From assembly GCA_030427255.1 (NCBI GenBank), contig JAUHWY010000016.1:929-64928 (forward strand): a stretch of DNA of 64,000 bases, read 5' to 3'. Of the stretch, positions 56,558 through 61,234 are shown piece after piece. A model generated the notes under the pieces. The model did not search any database and had not been told where the DNA came from. It saw nothing but the letters and a program-made list of their open reading frames with translations. The stretch is from Bacteroidia bacterium. GTDB taxonomy: Bacteria > Bacteroidota > Bacteroidia > CAIKAF01. The stretch's first letter is position 1, and every line of letters starts with the position of its first letter. The position numbers were made by a program, and so were the translations under genes.

Positions 56558-57670
56558 AACTTTGGCCGTTTCCTTTTCGCCCCGCTCCATTACGCGAGCC
56601 TGTACCTGAATTCCCTCTTGGTGTAAAGCCATCCAAAACTTATGGATAAAAGCAGGGTCAAGACCAAGTTCTTTAGCACGCCGCGTGCGGCTGCCTAAAA
56701 TTTCATTCCAACGCTCCAGTTGAAAAATGGTAACGTTGTGCTCCTGCTTGTAACGTCCAATCTCCTCGGTGACCCTGAGCCTCCGCTCCAATAAGTTAAG
56801 CATGTCCTCATCCAAACTGTCAATAAGCAAACGCAATTGGTGCAGACGATCAAGAAAAACCTGCTCCTCACTTTTGTTTTCCCGATGATTTAAAGCACTT
56901 AAAAACGCTTCTAAATCTTCCTGTTTTATTTGCTGTTCTGCATCACTCCAAGCCACCTCCGGCTTGGGGTGACTTTCAATCATAAGGCCATCAAAAGCTA
57001 AATCCAAGGCGCGTTGAGCCACATCTTTGAGCAAATTACGTTTGCCTGCAATATGGGAAGGGTCACAAATGACGGGTAAATGAGGCACCATCCCTTTGAG
57101 TTGGAGGGCTATTTCCCAACGTGGTGCATTGCGGTAGGGATGTGCATCGTAGCTGGTAAACCCACGGTGCACGGCTCCTAATTTTCGAATGCCTGCCGAA
57201 TGAATACGTTCAAGAGCGCCAAGCCACAAATTCAAGTCGGGACTAATAGGATTTTTGACCAAAACAGGTACATCTACTCCGGAGAGCGCATCCGATATTT
57301 CTTGAACCGAAAAAGGGTTTACCGTTGTTCTTGCGCCCACCCAAAGCAAGGAAATGCCTGCTTTTAATGCTGCCTCTACATGTTCCCCATTGGCTACTTC
57401 TATGGCTGTTTTAAGACCGGTTTCTTCCATGGCTTCTTGCAACCATTCGAGAGCAGGTAGCCCATGTCCCTCAAAGCTGTTGGGTCGGGTTCTGGGTTTC
57501 CAAACACCTGCACGGAGGTAATCAAGCTCCTTGATTTGGCTCAGCTGACGCGCCGATTGAAGTATTTGCTTGCGGCTTTCTGCCGAACATGGACCGGAAA
57601 TAAGCAGGGAAGGGTTTCCTTTGGGAGACCAAGCATGTAGAGGTACTAAATCAGACAGCAAGCTATTCAT
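56549..57670 (-). CDS. Bifunctional DAHP synthase / chorismate mutase
   Basis: 'ISGPCSAES', 'RAG.WKPRTRP.SFEG', 'W.GART', 'DPSH', 'GL.IE.H'; C-terminal AroQ 'LR..ID..D......L..R'. Confidence 0.93.
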   Translation of the reverse strand: MNSLLSDLVPLHAWSPKGNPSLLISGPCSAESRKQILQSARQLSQIKELDYLRAGVWKPRTRPNSFEGHGLPALEWLQEAMEETGLKTAIEVANGEHVEAALKAGISLLWVGARTTVNPFSVQEISDALSGVDVPVLVKNPISPDLNLWLGALERIHSAGIRKLGAVHRGFTSYDAHPYRNAPRWEIALQLKGMVPHLPVICDPSHIAGKRNLLKDVAQRALDLAFDGLMIESHPKPEVAWSDAEQQIKQEDLEAFLSALNHRENKSEEQVFLDRLHQLRLLIDSLDEDMLNLLERRLRVTEEIGRYKQEHNVTIFQLERWNEILGSRTRRAKELGLDPAFIHKFWMALHQEGIQVQARVMERGEKETAKVSG

Positions 57671-57781
57671 GTATTCATAAAACAGTCGACCATGGCAATT
57701 GGTTGCCAAAGCGAATATCCGTTATTTGAAACAGCCGCCCAAAAAAAACGTATATAAGAGCAAATAATCGGCGTATCCTGC

Positions 57782-57789
57782 TAATTTTG
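57782..57789 (+). promoter_or_regulatory. -7 box for tmRNA
   Basis: TAATTTTG 20 nt upstream of the mature 5' end. Confidence 0.7.
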
Positions 57790-57809
57790 CGCCCTTGTTC
57801 TTTTTATTT

Positions 57810-58175
57810 GGGGCTGACTGGTTTTGACAGCATGTGATATCGGTCAGTAAGCATGTCGAGGATTGCTGCTTGCCTCGTTAATCAAAAGCTTCGACACGTT
57901 AAGTGCCGACAACCACGACTACGCTCTGGCTGCCTAATCAAAGTTGATTACGCAGTGAGCTGCTCCACCTAAAGCCTGCCTGTTGCTTTAGGACCGGAGT
58001 ATCAGTCAAATCAGGCTGCTGCCAAGGAAGTTCCGAACTTGGTTTAAGCTAAGGAACTAAGGGTAGATTAGGCCGTCATCAGCCGTTTTCTGCCCCGACA
58101 ATTAAGCGGTGACTAAGCATGTAGAAAGCTGGTTGATGCCATGTTTGGACGCGGGTTCGATTCCCGCCAGCTCCA
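57810..58175 (+). ncRNA. ssrA: tmRNA; tag (A)DNHDYALAA*
   Basis: 5' GGGGCTGACTGGTTTTGACAG; tag ORF GCC GAC AAC CAC GAC TAC GCT CTG GCT GCC TAA at 57905-57937; T-arm GCGGGTTCGATTCCCGC; acceptor CAGCTCC-A; CCA not fully encoded. Confidence 0.97.
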
Positions 58176-58180
58176 CTTTT

Positions 58181-58560
58181 GAGTGTAGAGCAACAGTATT
58201 GAGTGTGGAGGGGGAAGGGAGTTTAGAGCAACAGTATTGAGTGTGGAGGGTGTTTTTGGGAGTGATGTATTTCATTATGAGAATCTTGGTGCTCCCTTTT
58301 GCTCTCAACTCAGGAGGGAGGTATAGAGCAACAGTATTGAGTGTGGAGGGGGAGGGAAGTATAGAGCAACAGTATTGAGTGTGGAGGGTGTTTTTGGGAA
58401 ATGGTGTATTTATTGTTTGTTGTGAATATCTTGCTTCTTCTTGCTTTCGCTCCTCCCTGTTGCTCTTCCTCCCCCCTGTTGCTGTTGCTCCTCCCTGTTG
58501 CTCTTCCTCCTCCCTCTTGCTGTTGCTCCTCCCTCTTGCTCCATTCCCCTCTCTTTTTCT
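58181..58560 (+). repeat. Left compound repeat block: 4 x GAGCAACAGTATTGAGTGTGGAGG core + ~5 x 19-bp pyrimidine-rich units
   Basis: Cores at 58188, 58226, 58326, 58364 (spacing 38/100/38); then CTCCTCCCTGTTGCTGTTG-like units. Confidence 0.92.
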
Positions 58561-58583
58561 TTCGTTCAATCAAATAAACCAAA

Positions 58584-58928
58584 ATGTTTGATTTTGAGAA
58601 ACTAGTCGTTTACAGCAAAGCAAAGCGATTCAACAAGAAAGTCCATACATTCCTTACATGTATTACGCTAGACCGTACCACAACCTACCAATTGAGGCGG
58701 GCATCATTAAGCATTATGCTGAATGTTGCGGAAGGTGCCGGCAGAATTTCCAAACGAGATAAAAGACATTTTTATGTAATCGCTCGTGGTTCAACATTTG
58801 AATGCGTAGCCATTTTCGATTTTCTTAAAGAAATCCAAATGATCGACCAATCTCAGTTCGAATCGTTTTACCATGATTTGGAAGAGCTTTCAAAGCTGCT
58901 ATTTTCGTTGATTAAGAGCATGGAATAG
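58584..58928 (+). CDS. Four helix bundle protein (23S rRNA-IVP / bAvd-like family)
   Basis: 'F.FEKL.VY', 'QLRRA.LSI.LN.AEG.GR', 'F..IARGS..EC', 'SK.L..LI'. Confidence 0.92.
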   Translation: MFDFEKLVVYSKAKRFNKKVHTFLTCITLDRTTTYQLRRASLSIMLNVAEGAGRISKRDKRHFYVIARGSTFECVAIFDFLKEIQMIDQSQFESFYHDLEELSKLLFSLIKSME

Positions 58929-58930
58929 GT

Positions 58931-59518
58931 ATGGGGAGGGGAGTTTGGAGCAACAGTGCCGAGCATACAGGGGGAAGGGAGTCTAGAGCAACAGTATTGA
59001 TTGTGGAGGGTGTTTTTGGGAGTGATGTATTTCATTGTGAAAATCTTGGTGCTCCCTCTTGCTCCTTCCTCTTGCTCTCAACTCAGGAAGGGAGTTTGGA
59101 GCAACAGTATTGAGTGTGGAGGATGTTTTTGGGAGTGGTGTATTTCATTATGAAAATTTTGGTGCTCCCTCTTGCTCCTTCCTCTTGCTCTCAACTCAGG
59201 AGGGAAGTATAGAGCAACAATATTGAGTGTGGAGGATGTTTTTGGGAGTGATGTATTTCATTATGAAAATCTTGGTGCTCCCTCTTGCTCCTTCCTCTTG
59301 CTCTCAACTCAGGAGGGAAGTATAGAGCAACAATATTGAGTGTGGAGGATGTTTTTGGGAGTGGTGTATTTCATTATGAAAATCTTGGTGCTCCCTCTTG
59401 CTCCTTCCTCTTGCTCTCAACTCAGGAAGGGAGTTTGGAGCAACAGTATTGAGTGTGGAGGATGTTTTTGGGAAATGGCGTATTTTTTTTTGTTGTGAAG
59501 ATCTTGCTTCTTCTTGCT
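58931..59518 (+). repeat. Right block: 113-bp tandem repeat, 4 full units plus flanking partial units
   Basis: Core GAGCAACA at 58948, 58986, 59099, 59212, 59325, 59438 (spacing 38, 113, 113, 113, 113); units near-identical. Confidence 0.95.
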
Positions 59519-59809
59519 CTTGCTCCTCCCTGTTGCTGTTGCTCCTCCCTGTTGCTGTTGCTCCTCCCTGTTGCTGTTGCTCCTCCCTGTTGCTGTTGCT
59601 CCTCCCTGTTGCTGTTGCTCCTCCCTGTTGCTGTTGCTCCTCCCTCTTGCTCTTGCTCCTCCCTCTTGCTCTTGCTCCCCCCCTGTTGCTCTTCCTCCTC
59701 CCTGTTGCTCTTCCTCCCCCCTCTTGCTCTTCCTCCTCCCTCTTGCTCTTCCTCCTCCCTCTTGCCTCTTCCTCCTTCCTCTTGCTCCTCCCTCTTCCTC
59801 CTCCCTCCC
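59519..59809 (+). repeat. 19-bp pyrimidine-rich tandem repeat (TGCTCCTCCCTGTTGCTGT), degenerating 3'
   Basis: Period 19 seen at 59521/59540/59559...; about 15 units. Confidence 0.92.
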
Positions 59810-61234
59810 TTATTCTTTGGCAAAGAGCTCTGCTTTTTTGAGCAACCATGAAATGGATGCCACTTGGGAAGCATCTCTGATTTCGGACAGAAGTCCCTGG
59901 CTGGCCCGGTTGTCGCCCAGACGGGCGCGCATGAGTCGTTTCACGTATTTTACAAAATTGAGGCAAATGGTTTTTTGGTAGGCCGAAATGAGTTCGTTGC
60001 GCCTCAAGTACACGTAAAAGCTATCGCAAAGCGAGAAAAAGGCATCTACATCCTCCAGCTCAAAATAGGTTTTGAGCAGTAAAATTTTTGAATCGAGGAT
60101 ATAATATACGTCCATATACTCCACGTGGCTGAGCAGCCGAAGGGTTTTGCGGTACTCTTCTTTAAAAAAGTGCAGCCAAGCCAGGTTGTAGGTGAAGGCA
60201 TTTTCGCGGTACTTGGGTGCCAGTTTGTTTTTGTATGTATAAATGAAGTTTTCGACCCAATCGTATTCCTCCAACCGTAAGCCCACCGTTACAATGTTTT
60301 TAAACGAAGAGGGAAGGATGAATCCGTTTTCGTAAACCAAGTCCTTTTCCAGGAGTAACTTAGATAGGTTGAAATAGTCCCGTAGGTACTTTCGATGGCC
60401 TTGGTTTATTTTTTTTGTACAATAGTTTTGGGCTAAGAAATACAGGTCGCGCAGCTCTTCCGGACCAAAGAATTTCGGGTATTCATTGAGCCGTTGAATC
60501 AGTTTTTTAAAATGGGTTTCGTTTTGCTCCTCAACCAAGGTGAGCAGCACCAAATGGTATATTTCAATGGCCGGGTGGTCGCTGTAGTCAGAGTCTCTTA
60601 AATGGACCATTATTTCCTCCCTGAGCCGTGTGGTGTATTCGGAATTCAAAAAATTTTGTCGGGTGAGCATTTCGCAAAGCAGCTTTAGCTTTTTGCTCAG
60701 GTAATACAAATCCAGGTGGTCGGCAGTATCTTGAAGGACCTGGTCGAGGGATTTGTCGCGCTTTGCCGATGAGTAGGAATAATGCTGCTCTTCTATAAGG
60801 TAGTTTCGGAAATAGAACTCCGAGTCCCGGGTTGGGTTTTTTTGGAGGAATTTTTGGGAATCATCAAAGATTTGGTTAAAGTATTTTTCAATGTCTTTGG
60901 TGCTGTAGTATTCCAATAATAGCTGATTGTGCCGCAGTTTGTTTTTGTCCAGCTCACGAATGGCAATAAAACGTTCCAGCAGCTTGGCTAAGTCGGAAAA
61001 AGCATAGCGCAGCTTGGCTTCGTCAAAGGCTGCTTTACCAAAGGTCTTTTGCCAAACTTTTTCTCGGTCTATGGCCGGCCCTTCTAAGTTTTGCTGCTCT
61101 TTTTTCAGATAAGTAAACAGCGTTATGAGCGATTCGTTTTTGTTGAAAAATGGCGACCGAATAAACTTGTCAAACTCTCGCCACTCTTGGGCATCAAAGC
61201 TTTGTAGGATACGTATGGGTTTGCTTTTTTGCAT
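59810..61234 (-). CDS. Cytoplasmic all-helical/TPR-like hypothetical protein, possible regulator
   Basis: No signal peptide; 'E...F.KF..SPFFN' N-terminus; TPR-like helices 'NLAWLHF..EEY..TL.LL'. Confidence 0.75.
   Translation of the reverse strand: MQKSKPIRILQSFDAQEWREFDKFIRSPFFNKNESLITLFTYLKKEQQNLEGPAIDREKVWQKTFGKAAFDEAKLRYAFSDLAKLLERFIAIRELDKNKLRHNQLLLEYYSTKDIEKYFNQIFDDSQKFLQKNPTRDSEFYFRNYLIEEQHYSYSSAKRDKSLDQVLQDTADHLDLYYLSKKLKLLCEMLTRQNFLNSEYTTRLREEIMVHLRDSDYSDHPAIEIYHLVLLTLVEEQNETHFKKLIQRLNEYPKFFGPEELRDLYFLAQNYCTKKINQGHRKYLRDYFNLSKLLLEKDLVYENGFILPSSFKNIVTVGLRLEEYDWVENFIYTYKNKLAPKYRENAFTYNLAWLHFFKEEYRKTLRLLSHVEYMDVYYILDSKILLLKTYFELEDVDAFFSLCDSFYVYLRRNELISAYQKTICLNFVKYVKRLMRARLGDNRASQGLLSEIRDASQVASISWLLKKAELFAKE

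What the first reader, a model, noticed from the sequence alone, without database searches (positions are those of the whole stretch)
58176..59809. IVS-like element after tmRNA: four-helix-bundle (IVP/bAvd-like) ORF enclosed in an RNA stem and flanked by homologous compound repeat blocks
Seen: (1) the element starts right at the tmRNA 3' end with no obvious terminator between. (2) 58533-58553 (CTCTTGCTCCATTCCCCTCTC) pairs with 58934-58956 (GGGAGGGGAGTTTGGAGCAACAG) at 20 of 21 positions with a 2-nt bulge, and 58495-58504 pairs perfectly with 58985-58994, so the ORF lies in the loop of a long stem. (3) Both sides have the same order: GAGCAACAGTATTGAGTGTGGAGG cores, a shared ~55-bp linker (58391-58445 ~ 59465-59518), then 19-bp pyrimidine units. 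Established: this protein family was first found inside RNase III-excised 23S rRNA intervening sequences and is structurally related to the DGR RNA-binding accessory protein bAvd. Inference: a self-contained RNA-level module (excisable stem-loop + RNA-binding protein + repeated binding sites), possibly mobile, with no integrase, transposase or RT in cis. Best candidate for an undescribed system in this window.
Basis: partly seen in the sequence, partly recalled or inferred. Interest (0 to 1): 0.82.

Follow-up and report, generated by a model that had tools for sequence, protein, structure and literature searches.

The report
Four-helix-bundle gene cassette trailing tmRNA
A small, conserved gene of the family first found inside ribosomal-RNA "intervening sequences" sits directly behind the tmRNA gene, wrapped in amplified hairpin-forming repeats, and belongs to a widespread Bacteroidota cassette that rides behind tRNA and tmRNA genes and that I did not find described in print.

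Summary
The repeats, the ORF and the complementarities are real. The ORF (58584-58928) is an intact PF05635/TIGR02436 four-helix-bundle protein. Each flank folds on itself into a long hairpin.

The locus is an expanded member of a cassette family. In 57 of 80 loci of this protein clade a same-strand tRNA or tmRNA (13 tmRNA) ends 77-424 nt upstream. Chance in this genome is 0.27%. The leaders share a purine-arm/pyrimidine-arm motif with covarying pairs, absent from Rfam. They lack the Bacteroidota -7 promoter motif: 4 of 55, against 38 of 57 upstream of the stable-RNA gene. The leader is repeated right after the stop codon in 25 of 75 loci.

The locus is polymorphic. One metagenome contig joins 58500 to 59792 and lacks the ORF. 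The closest syntenic genome has other DNA there.

Most likely the gene is promoter-less, read from the tmRNA promoter and released by stable-RNA processing. That is inferred, not shown. This scan found the same cassette class before on other DNA (e1-2127626 and others).

The parts
57782..57789 (+). TAATTTTG, the only match to the Bacteroidota -7 promoter motif TAnnTTTG on the + strand of 57600-59900; presumed tmRNA promoter
   Evidence: pattern search; the consensus itself is recalled, not from a call
57810..58176 (+). tmRNA gene (tag ADNHDYALAA); 3' CCA not encoded
58177..58435 (+). upstream purine-rich block: two compound units (about 58181-58318 and 58319-58442) carrying the cores GAGCAACAGTATTGAGTGTGGAGG
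   Evidence: G 35%, C 8%
58258..58312 (+). small hairpin GGGAGTG...GCTCCC, then TTTT (58297-58300) and the short pyrimidine word GCTCTCAACTCA; weak terminator-like element inside the first unit
   Evidence: not listed by the simple scan
58436..58556 (+). upstream pyrimidine array (19-nt units, about 5 copies), unstructured alone (-3.2 kcal/mol), pairs with 58177-58435 (mean probability 0.685)
58557..58583 (+). 27-nt A/T-rich unstructured stretch before the ATG; no -7 promoter motif
58584..58928 (+). four-helix-bundle protein gene (114 aa, pI 9.17), PF05635 / TIGR02436
58931..59504 (+). downstream hairpin units (one degenerate copy, then the 113-nt unit x4.5); each unit folds alone (-36 kcal/mol, z -2.4)
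59465..59518 (+). linker homologous to 58391-58445 (50 of 55 columns identical)
59505..59809 (+). downstream pyrimidine array (19-nt units x14.3 plus degenerate tail), ends at the stop codon of the convergent gene; copy number unverified
58501..59791 (.). segment absent from a related strain: one 4943-nt contig of run X3 joins 58500 to 59792 (16 nt fit either side), removing the ORF and the downstream units
   Evidence: tables 5 and 8
59810..61234 (-). convergent 474-aa gene (no Pfam or NCBIfam family) that bounds the element on the right; 97% identical over 362 aligned residues in genome G005

Best explanation
58177-59809 is a tmRNA-trailing copy of a Bacteroidota gene cassette. The cassette is a promoter-less four-helix-bundle (PF05635) gene whose leader starts at the 3' end of a tRNA or tmRNA gene. 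The leader has a purine-rich arm of GAG-NNN hexamer words and a complementary pyrimidine arm just upstream of the ATG.

In this genome the leader module has been tandemly amplified on both sides of the ORF. Upstream lie 2 units plus about 5 pyrimidine units. Downstream lie about 5 units plus about 14 pyrimidine units. Each flank therefore folds into its own long hairpin, and no stem encloses the ORF.

Proposed working (inferred): transcription from the tmRNA promoter runs into the cassette. Host stable-RNA processing then separates tmRNA from the mRNA, either by RNase Z-type cleavage after the discriminator of a CCA-less precursor, or by RNase III on the long purine:pyrimidine duplex, or both. 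The flanking hairpins protect or terminate the released message. This would make it a functional analogue of ORF-bearing rRNA intervening sequences placed in a stable-RNA trailer.

The cassette turns over through recombination or slippage between its direct flanking repeats. What the basic protein does is unknown. Binding to its own repeated words is a reasonable guess.
For: SHOWN
- Family and fold.
- The clade is conserved at 60-82% identity, with 37 invariant columns in 34 sequences.
- 57 of 80 clade loci have a same-strand tRNA/tmRNA 77-424 nt upstream: 20 Leu, 14 Arg, 13 tmRNA, 10 others. That compares with 0.27% of strand positions in this genome and 1 of 29 loci of other PF05635 clades.
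- In the own genome 2 of 3 full-length genes follow tmRNA or tRNA-Leu.
- The leader motif is conserved across orders. The proposed purine:pyrimidine pairs hold in 70% of cells against 32-49% when slid. There are 60 cells with changes on both sides against 40.0 +/- 4.6 in shuffles (0 of 500), with GTG/CAC switching to CAA/TTG.
- Leaders fold at z <= -2 in 10 of 12.
- TAnnTTTG occurs in 4 of 55 leaders (5 sites, 3.5 expected) against 38 of 57 regions upstream of the stable-RNA gene. In the window the only + strand site is at 57782.
- The leader is repeated directly after the stop in 25 of 75 loci (54-144 nt at 88-100% identity for most; shorter or less alike in a few), against 3 of 75 cross-locus controls. 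Tandem [leader-ORF] arrays and truncated second ORFs are frequent.
- Leader modules are amplified up to 9-fold in other genomes (L101, L149).
- An ORF-less variant has its junction inside the two pyrimidine arrays.
- The genome has RNase III and an RNase Z homologue (E 1.2e-81). 36 of 38 stable-RNA genes lack an encoded CCA.
- In RNA run X15 two small contigs cross the tmRNA 3' end to 58203 and 58241 at depth 8-10, against 1555-2115 on tmRNA.

INFERRED: co-transcription, the processing enzymes, the protective role of the hairpins, and the protein's target.
Against: - No RNA contig covers the ORF (58510-58914 depth 0 in X15). The read-through contigs carry mismatches, may come from a related strain or from DNA in the library, and contigs cannot show ends or levels.
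- In relatives a terminator-like hairpin (A-run, stem, T-run) lies between the stable RNA and the ORF in 30 of 56 leaders, and a T-run in 45 of 56. Simple read-through would therefore be inefficient or regulated.
- The window's units match the clade's leader profile only weakly. nhmmer gives E 0.071 on the + strand and about 1e-3 on the - strand. The covariance model R1 finds no hit at this locus at E <= 0.01.
- GAG/CTC positions are near-invariant beyond what pairing needs, which points to sequence-specific recognition and not only dsRNA.
- For the Coxiella IVS the abstract of PMC4990558 says results suggest the protein is not synthesised in vivo.
Confidence: 0.55

Rival explanations
1. One reading: the ORF sits in the loop of one long stem formed by its two flanks, is excised as a stem-loop by RNase III like a 23S rRNA IVS, and forms a self-contained RNA-level module.
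For: The complementarities exist. The upstream pyrimidine array can pair about as well with the downstream purine units (-119.0 kcal/mol) as with the upstream block (-123.1). The window ranks 0 of 88 in the upstream x downstream duplex test, and enclosing arms are common in other PF05635 clades (14 of 26 loci at rank <=5 of 88).
Against: Pair probability of both proposed stems is 0.000, and the MFE has two local hairpins. The upstream partner is transcribed first. In the same protein clade 1 of 17 loci reaches rank <=5 of 88 and 1 of 75 has an inverted match of 40 bits or more.
Confidence: 0.07
2. The repeated words are mainly binding sites (on DNA or RNA) for the four-helix-bundle protein itself, for example an autoregulatory operator or antitermination site. 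Hairpin formation is secondary.
For: GAG-N3 hexamer periodicity, with near-invariant GAG on the purine arm and CTC on the pyrimidine arm while the triplet between them varies. The word type follows the protein clade: hexamer GAG words here, 7/14/21-nt units in other clades. The protein is basic (pI 9.17) and has the fold of the nucleic-acid-binding bAvd. In many leaders the purine arm has two alternative partners, a proximal terminator arm and a distal pyrimidine arm.
Against: No binding data exist. Conservation of the words could reflect common descent of the whole cassette. Covariation of the middle triplet argues that pairing itself is selected.
Confidence: 0.15
3. A DNA-level mobile or selfish cassette. 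The leader copies that flank the ORF are recombination sites (excision and re-insertion by homologous or site-specific recombination, possibly with an integrase acting in trans). Expression behind stable-RNA genes is incidental.
For: The ORF-less variant has its junction in the direct repeats. Near-identical leader copies flank the ORF in 25 of 75 loci. Solo leaders and ORF remnants lie behind tRNAs (L175, L181, L171, L173) and behind tmRNA in G027 (L064). The cassette is not found at the ssrA site of any of the 25 relatives with readable downstream sequence. The host stable RNA changes at least twice inside one well-supported protein clade (Arg x6, tmRNA x1, Met x1).
Against: No recombinase in cis. 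No duplicated tmRNA 3' end in the window. The direct repeats are equally explained by tandem duplication and slippage (L119, L105). Stable-RNA identity is clustered on the protein tree (22 changes against 36.6 +/- 2.0 in shuffles), so moves are not frequent, and the tree is poorly resolved (5 of 76 branches starred). The 13-14-nt tmRNA end fragments before some leaders are more simply attR remnants of islands integrated in ssrA (my inference).
Confidence: 0.13
4. Neutral debris: slippage-prone simple repeats that accumulate in a fast-evolving intergenic region, with no function for the arrays.
For: The arrays are hugely expanded here compared with the 77-160-nt leaders of most relatives. The same intergenic region in G005 holds unrelated REP and GC-rich hairpins. 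Orphan arrays of similar words occur at two other own-genome sites.
Against: Motif and pairing are conserved across orders. The layout recurs in 80 loci. The ORF is intact and conserved.
Confidence: 0.07
5. Assembly artefact: the repeat blocks are produced by mis-assembly.
For: Short contigs break in the downstream arrays. Word depth at 59644-59724 is about 1250 against about 13 for flanking single-copy DNA.
Against: Contigs of X1/X2 tile 57700-59031 exactly, including a 662-nt contig across the upstream array, the ORF and the first downstream unit. A contig from a different study (X3) carries the upstream block and the end of the downstream array. The same design is seen in many independent assemblies.
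Confidence: 0.02

Closest known systems
ORF-bearing 23S rRNA intervening sequences (e.g. the Coxiella burnetii helix-45 IVS encoding S23p; PMC4990558, abstract and outline seen; also in CPR rRNA genes, PMC11270868, passages seen)
   Same: Same protein family (PF05635). A small ORF without a promoter of its own, embedded in a stable-RNA transcription unit and flanked by complementary sequence. The element is patchily distributed among relatives.
   Different: It lies in the 3' trailer of tmRNA (tRNAs in relatives), not inside an rRNA helix. The ORF is not enclosed by the favoured fold. The arms are tandemly amplified word arrays. RNase III excision is shown for Coxiella and is only inferred here.
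bAvd, accessory protein of diversity-generating retroelements (PDB 4DWL, 8UB7; PF05635 likened to Avd in PMC10053308, passages seen)
   Same: Four-helix-bundle fold, TM 0.77-0.80. Basic protein.
   Different: 13% identity. No RT or template/variable repeat pair at the locus. The genome's single RT is retron-type and elsewhere.
The tRNA/tmRNA-trailing hairpin cassette with a four-helix-bundle gene noted earlier in this scan (e1-2127626), and the general 'four-helix-bundle gene between inverted repeat arrays' notes (e1-5098101, e1-824442, e1-854623 and others)
   Same: Same protein family, same position directly behind tRNA/tmRNA genes, hairpin repeats, tandem duplication. I re-derived this from 80 loci of my own.
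   Different: This copy is unusually expanded (about 1.3 kb of repeats). Its units are diverged from the canonical leader. It comes with a natural ORF-less variant.
mRNAs co-transcribed behind tRNA genes, such as the tRNA-tufB operon (recalled, not from a call)
   Same: A protein-coding message downstream of stable-RNA genes that is released by tRNA processing.
   Different: Those are fixed housekeeping operons without repeat arms or gain and loss.
REP/BIME- and Flavo-1-type intergenic hairpin repeats (earlier notes on this genome: e1-1505289, e1-1505291)
   Same: Hairpin-forming, tandemly amplifiable intergenic repeats. Such elements fill the equivalent site in G005.
   Different: The repeats here are locus-specific (the core 24-mer occurs only here) and tied to one gene family. 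No Rfam family matches.

Membership tests
PF05635 / TIGR02436 four-helix-bundle (23S rRNA IVS protein) family | Sequence match above the curated cut-offs | tested here: met
   PF05635 89.5 bits (cut-off 33.8); TIGR02436 85.8 bits (cut-off 24)
PF05635 / TIGR02436 four-helix-bundle (23S rRNA IVS protein) family | Four-helix-bundle fold like 2RLD / 2GSC | tested here: met
   AF2 model pLDDT 92.7 with four helices; Foldseek TM 0.85-0.89 to 2rld and 2gsc
ORF-bearing rRNA intervening sequence (IVS) | Inserted in a helix of 23S or 16S rRNA | tested here: not met
   Lies after tmRNA; Rfam finds only tmRNA in 57000-60500
ORF-bearing rRNA intervening sequence (IVS) | Flanks pair with each other so that the ORF lies in the loop | tested here: not met
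   Pair probability 0.000; local flank hairpins in the MFE
ORF-bearing rRNA intervening sequence (IVS) | Excised from the precursor by RNase III | not testable with these tools
   An RNase III gene is present; contig-level RNA data cannot show ends
DGR accessory protein (Avd) | Encoded next to a DGR reverse transcriptase with template/variable repeats | tested here: not met
   Only one RT in the genome, retron-type by PADLOC, on contig C13 between Mrr, WYL and YhcG genes
DGR accessory protein (Avd) | bAvd-like fold | tested here: met
   TM 0.80 (8ub7_C) and 0.77 (4dwl_C), 13% identity
Bacteroidota tRNA/tmRNA-trailing four-helix-bundle cassette (class defined in this scan, not in print) | Protein of the 114-aa MFDFEKL... 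clade | tested here: met
   60-82% identity to 33 aligned relatives; groups with tmRNA-trailing copies on the tree, unresolved
Bacteroidota tRNA/tmRNA-trailing four-helix-bundle cassette (class defined in this scan, not in print) | Element begins at the 3' end of a same-strand tRNA/tmRNA gene | tested here: met
   Repeats start at 58177, one base after the tmRNA end; 57 of 80 relatives
Bacteroidota tRNA/tmRNA-trailing four-helix-bundle cassette (class defined in this scan, not in print) | Canonical leader motif (AAAACAG, purine words, T-run, CCTCAATACTCACACTC...) | tested here: inconclusive
   Shares words such as TTTTGAGTGT and CAGTATTGAGTGTG by eye. nhmmer E 0.071 on the + strand and about 1e-3 on the - strand. 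CM R1 has no hit here at E <= 0.01
Bacteroidota tRNA/tmRNA-trailing four-helix-bundle cassette (class defined in this scan, not in print) | No -7 promoter motif between the stable RNA and the ATG | tested here: met
   No TAnnTTTG in 58177-58583; 51 of 55 relatives' leaders also lack it
Bacteroidota tRNA/tmRNA-trailing four-helix-bundle cassette (class defined in this scan, not in print) | Leader module repeated directly after the stop codon | tested here: met
   Downstream units start 3 nt after the stop; 124-nt unit 89% identical between 58181-58304 and 58941-59064; 25 of 75 relatives
Integrase-borne island in ssrA | Integrase gene and a duplicated tmRNA 3' end (att) at the far border | tested here: not met
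   No second copy of the last 23 nt of tmRNA in the window at up to 3 mismatches. Inside 58177-59809 the only ORF of 40 aa or more that is not repeat-derived is the four-helix-bundle gene

The most novel reading that the evidence does not exclude
PF05635 genes are the cargo of a promoter-less cassette type that parasitises stable-RNA genes in general: rRNA helices (classical IVS), tRNA trailers and tmRNA trailers. The cassette would use the host's own tRNA/rRNA processing nucleases to be cut out as a hairpin-capped mRNA. It would spread and amplify through its repeat arms, and the Avd-like protein would bind those hexamer or heptamer words to control its own release or copying. That would give one mechanism for IVS proteins, for this cassette family and for the unexplained short tandem word arrays of many bacterial genomes.
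Probability: 0.2. Interest if true: 0.85.

Novelty: new variant of a known kind. Interest (0 to 1): 0.65.

Why it matters
The IVS protein family has had no function since it was found in rRNA intervening sequences; a 2024 paper still calls it functionally uncharacterised (PMC11270868, passage seen). Here one clade of it is tied to tRNA and tmRNA 3' ends. It has a conserved, covarying leader, no promoter motif and flanking repeats of its own leader. That links the family to stable-RNA transcription units in general.

It also gives concrete, cheap experiments in cultured, harmless Bacteroidota: transcript-end mapping, nuclease depletion, and protein binding to defined 6-nt-periodic words. It warns annotators that the long repeat arrays next to tmRNA/tRNA genes, where assemblies often break, belong to a gene cassette.

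I found no description of this arrangement in the searched library.

Tried and rejected
- Genome-wide dispersed repeat: the 24-nt core is confined to this locus. blastn hits elsewhere are a poly-Gln/Glu coding tract (C22:62121-62275) and two orphan purine-word arrays.
- Known RNA family: Rfam finds only tmRNA/tRNA in the window region and in 10 relatives' loci.
- DGR: rejected.
- Defence-system protein: no PADLOC match.
- Expression: RNA runs hold only about the tmRNA share of the words (0.14-0.15). In X15 nothing covers the ORF, and one RNA contig joins 58209 to 58933 (side 36 nt, depth 7.5). That is too weak, and too likely a repeat or strain artefact, to read as an RNA-level joint.
- tRNA/tmRNA 3'-end fragments before leaders at sites without a full gene (L092, L096, L101, L105, L114, L135) were first taken as a sign that the cassette moves with a piece of the stable RNA. 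I now rate them as probable attR remnants of islands inserted into the stable-RNA gene (inference, untested).
- Covariance model R1 does not recover the window's own units.
- A 150 x 150-nt duplex test has a high background (cross-locus mean -42 kcal/mol), so only ranks were used.
Full report
WHAT IS THERE

The window is contig C38 (929-64928) of a 3.2-Mb, 57-contig Bacteroidota genome. A tmRNA gene ends at 58176. A convergent 474-aa gene of no known family ends at 59810. The 1633 nt between them hold one real gene, 58584-58928 (+), 114 aa. It matches PF05635 (E 2e-25) and TIGR02436 'four helix bundle protein' (E 2.2e-24).

Its AF2 model is a confident four-helix bundle (pLDDT 92.7). The nearest solved structures are 2rld and 2gsc (TM 0.85-0.89). 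bAvd chains follow at TM 0.77-0.80 and 13% identity. The protein is basic (pI 9.17).

Everything else is repeats:
- An upstream purine-rich block (58177-58435) of two compound units.
- An upstream pyrimidine array (58436-58556, 19-nt units).
- Downstream hairpin units (58931-59504, 113 nt x4.5).
- A downstream pyrimidine array (59505-59809, x14).

The exact core 24-mer occurs nowhere else in the genome.

THE FOLD

It does not in the favoured fold.

- The MFE of 58150-59860 (-579 kcal/mol) has two separate super-hairpins: upstream purine block with upstream pyrimidine array, and downstream units with downstream array.
- In the partition function the two proposed enclosing stems have probability 0.000. 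The upstream array pairs with the upstream block at 0.685.
- Both flanks beat dinucleotide shuffles (z -6.5 and -5.8).
- A single 113-nt unit is a hairpin of its own (-36 kcal/mol, z -2.4). The pyrimidine array alone is unstructured.
- Duplex energies show that the enclosing alternative is thermodynamically possible (-119.0 against -123.1 kcal/mol). It needs the later-made partner.

IS THE ASSEMBLY SOUND?

Contigs of DNA runs X1 and X2 have identical lengths and are probably one data set. They match 57700-59031 exactly, including a 662-nt contig across the upstream array, the ORF and the first downstream unit. They break inside the downstream arrays, so copy numbers are unverified.

The simple-repeat words reach a word depth of about 1250 against about 13 for flanking DNA. 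Either they are much more abundant in that sample, or the arrays are longer than assembled.

THE FAMILY PATTERN

The genome has three full PF05635 genes.
- One follows tRNA-Leu after a 94-nt hairpin leader (C43).
- One (C18) lies between a (GGTGAATGATGAAT)n array and complementary arrays.

I oriented 47 PF05635 loci from 31 related genomes and from public contigs. Left out were L004 and L049 (weak hits), L013 (duplicate of L012), and L020 and L023-L029 (partial matches or cut flanks).

- Loci of other clades carry 7/14/21/28-nt-period arrays at both ORF ends, the downstream one complementary to the upstream one.
- For 14 of 26 such loci, upstream-150 x downstream-150 duplexes rank <=5 of 88 against cross-locus pairs (45 of the 47 loci had usable flanks).
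- For the window's own clade this holds for only 1 of 17 (L021).
- Instead, 13 of 18 loci in that clade have a same-strand tRNA/tmRNA just upstream, against 1 of 29 in the others.

A LARGER SAMPLE OF THE WINDOW'S CLADE

The clade is large: 859 proteins at E <= 1e-10, with the best non-self hits at 82% and 80% identity. With an alignment of 34 members I fetched 80 loci; 495 relatives were found and the best 80 kept.

- 57 of 80 have a same-strand tRNA or tmRNA ending 77-424 nt before the ATG: Leu 20, Arg 14, tmRNA 13, Met 3, Lys 2, Phe 2, Ala, Val and Glu 1 each.
- Four of the 23 others had under 450 nt of upstream sequence.
- Three more have the stable RNA further up, behind tandem leader or cassette copies (L097, L119, L149).
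- Several others show a stable-RNA 3' end or a 13-14-nt fragment of one right before the first leader.
- In this genome only 0.27% of strand positions lie within 450 nt downstream of one of its 38 stable-RNA genes.

THE LEADER

The leaders begin at the stable RNA's last base and share a motif across orders. Its order is:
1. An A-run and CAG.
2. A purine arm of GAG-NNN words (GAGTGTGAGTATTGAGCAAGAGCGA).
3. A variable loop.
4. A T-run.
5. A pyrimidine arm (CCTCAATACTCACACTCCAACTCAAACTG) close to the ATG.

I aligned the first 95 nt or less of 37 compact leaders (all those of 77-165 nt, minus L158, which holds N). On that alignment:
- The purine:pyrimidine pairing holds in 70% of cells, against 32-49% when slid.
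- There are 60 cells with changes on both sides, against 40.0 +/- 4.6 in shuffles (0 of 500).
- The middle triplet switches GTG/CAC to CAA/TTG.
- GAG and CTC themselves are almost invariant, which pairing alone does not need.

Further properties:
- Leaders fold at z <= -2 in 10 of 12.
- No Rfam family matches.
- 30 of 56 leaders also form a terminator-like hairpin closed by their first and last 12 nt before the T-run. The purine arm therefore has two alternative partners.
- The Bacteroidota -7 motif TAnnTTTG (consensus recalled) is found in 38 of 57 regions upstream of the stable-RNA gene, but in 4 of 55 leaders (5 sites, 3.5 expected).
- In the window its only + strand occurrence is at 57782, before tmRNA.

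DIRECT REPEATS AND TURNOVER

- In 25 of 75 loci the leader is repeated immediately after the stop codon: 54-144 nt at 88-100% identity in most, shorter or less alike in a few. The cross-locus control gives 3 of 75. Inverted matches of 40 bits or more occur in 1 of 75.
- Inspection shows tandem [leader-ORF] arrays (L119 with several copies, L105), truncated second ORFs (L137, L121) and leader-ORF-leader forms (L138, L162, L145).
- Leader modules are amplified up to 9-fold before the ORF in L101 and L149. The window's layout is an extreme case of the same thing.
- A covariance model of the leader found leaders in 5 of 31 related genomes. These include solo leaders behind tRNAs (L175, L181) and ORF stumps (L171, L173).
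- G027 has an ORF-less leader-like module behind its tmRNA (L064).

THE LOCUS IS NOT FIXED

- Of 27 relatives with a tmRNA hit over the cut-off, 25 have 188 nt or more of downstream sequence. None has this gene there. G004's contig ends at the tmRNA end, and G011's 23 nt later.
- G005 keeps the synteny (DAHP synthase 94%, 474-aa protein 97% identical). It fills the gap with about 410 nt of REP and GC-rich hairpins, and carries tandem cassettes of this clade behind a tRNA-Leu elsewhere.
- A 4943-nt contig of run X3, from another study, follows the window from 58170 to 58500 (23 mismatches, 25 gap letters). It then joins to 59792 and continues to 60100 with 4 differences. This is a natural variant without the ORF, whose junction lies in the two direct pyrimidine arrays (16 nt fit either side).
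- On a protein tree of 80 rows (L152 left out as truncated; quick method, only 5 of 76 branches starred) the stable-RNA type is clustered: 22 changes against 36.6 +/- 2.0 in 200 shuffles. It still changes inside a starred clade (Arg x6, tmRNA x1, Met x1).
- The window's nearest rows by path are all tmRNA-trailing (L089, L093, L095, L092, L090).

HOW IT PROBABLY WORKS

Shown:
- Position at the stable-RNA end.
- No promoter motif.
- Conserved and covarying arms.
- Hairpins on both sides.
- Direct repeats and an ORF-less variant.
- An RNase III gene.
- An RNase Z homologue (274 bits, E 1.2e-81, just under the curated cut-off).
- 36 of 38 stable-RNA genes without an encoded CCA.

Inferred: the ORF is transcribed from the tmRNA promoter. 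The precursor is cut after the discriminator (the expected route for CCA-less precursors; recalled), or in the long purine:pyrimidine duplex, or both. The hairpins cap or terminate the released message.

The only RNA evidence is weak. In run X15 tmRNA is covered at depth 1555-2115. Two small contigs cross its 3' end to 58203 and 58241 at depth 8-10, and nothing covers the ORF.

Against simple read-through stands the terminator-like hairpin in most relatives. For the Coxiella IVS the abstract says results suggest the protein is not synthesised in vivo (PMC4990558).

COMPARISON WITH WHAT IS KNOWN

The closest described thing is the ORF-bearing rRNA IVS (PMC4990558, abstract and outline; PMC11270868, passages).
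- Same: the protein family and the stable-RNA host.
- Different: the host site, no favoured enclosing stem, and amplified word arrays.

It is not a DGR, although PF05635 resembles Avd (PMC10053308, passages).

Five searches of the paper library found no description of four-helix-bundle genes behind tRNA/tmRNA genes or between word arrays. One hit only lists such a gene in a table (PMC5524665, passages). Supplements were closed and many journals are not held.

This scan has noted the class before on other DNA. I treated those notes as leads and re-tested the claims on my own loci.

VERDICT

This is a real feature. The IVS analogy is sound in spirit. The locus is an amplified tmRNA-trailing member of a widespread cassette that I could not find described.

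Noticed in passing
own genome G000:C18:2540-4000 (locus L001); also L046 (G004): A third four-helix-bundle gene (C18:3165-3473) lies between a long (GGTGAATGATGAAT)n array upstream and complementary ATTCATCATTCACC-type arrays with interleaved small hairpins downstream. The same cassette occurs in the same-genus genome G004, where the assembly has a run of N inside the array.
   Followed up: partly
own genome G000:C43:35067-35595 and C43:37626-37700: A tRNA-Leu is followed by a 94-nt hairpin leader and a paralogous four-helix-bundle gene. About 2 kb further, after a hipB/hipA-like gene pair (read by eye), lies an ORF-less leader-like motif (nhmmer E 0.0024).
   Followed up: partly
own genome G000:C22:113250-113400 and C30:87100-87480: Orphan arrays of the same kind of purine words (GAGCAAGAG, GAGCAACAG, GGGAGG) without any four-helix-bundle gene. 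They are interleaved with REP-type palindromes and lie near contig ends.
   Followed up: no
L172 and L176 (G005:C14:29985-35632): The closest syntenic relative lacks the cassette at ssrA. It has a tandem array of at least three to four cassettes of this clade, some truncated, behind a tRNA-Leu.
   Followed up: partly
L101:789-1435 and L149:669-1496: Nine tandem copies of the leader module precede the ORF in a Saccharicrinis genome and in a Bacteroidales MAG. These amplifications are comparable to the window's.
   Followed up: partly
L092, L096, L101, L105 (just upstream of the first leader): Where no full tmRNA gene is found, a 13-14-nt fragment identical in type to the tmRNA 3' end (…CAGCTCCAC) still abuts the leader, with A/T-rich DNA before it. 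These are probably attR-like remnants of islands integrated into ssrA. The same holds for tRNA 3' fragments in G027 (L177, L178, L180).
   Followed up: partly
window 59644-59724: Word depth of about 1250 (single contigs about 3100) in DNA runs X1/X2, against about 13 for flanking single-copy sequence. The CTCTTGCTC-type words are either far more numerous than assembled or shared with many other organisms in the sample.
   Followed up: no
window 59810-61234 (-): A 474-aa protein with no Pfam or NCBIfam match, 97% identical over 362 aligned residues in G005 at the same position.
   Followed up: no
own genome G000:C13:128500-135500 (L169): A defence-island-like cluster: Mrr-type restriction endonuclease, WYL/WCX regulator, a retron-type reverse transcriptase (best PADLOC models RT-Protease_XI / RT-TIR_XII) with a 295-aa partner of no family, and a YhcG/DUF1016 nuclease.
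   Followed up: partly
own genome G000:C48:35698-36200: A tRNA-Thr, Tyr, Gly, Thr cluster is followed directly by an ORF whose start reads like elongation factor Tu (by eye, recalled). This is an ordinary example in this genome of an mRNA placed behind tRNA genes.
   Followed up: no
L117 and L158: Two cassette loci sit on contigs of MAGs labelled Comamonadaceae and Akkermansia, although the cassette and its relatives are otherwise Bacteroidota. Mis-binning seems more likely than transfer.
   Followed up: no
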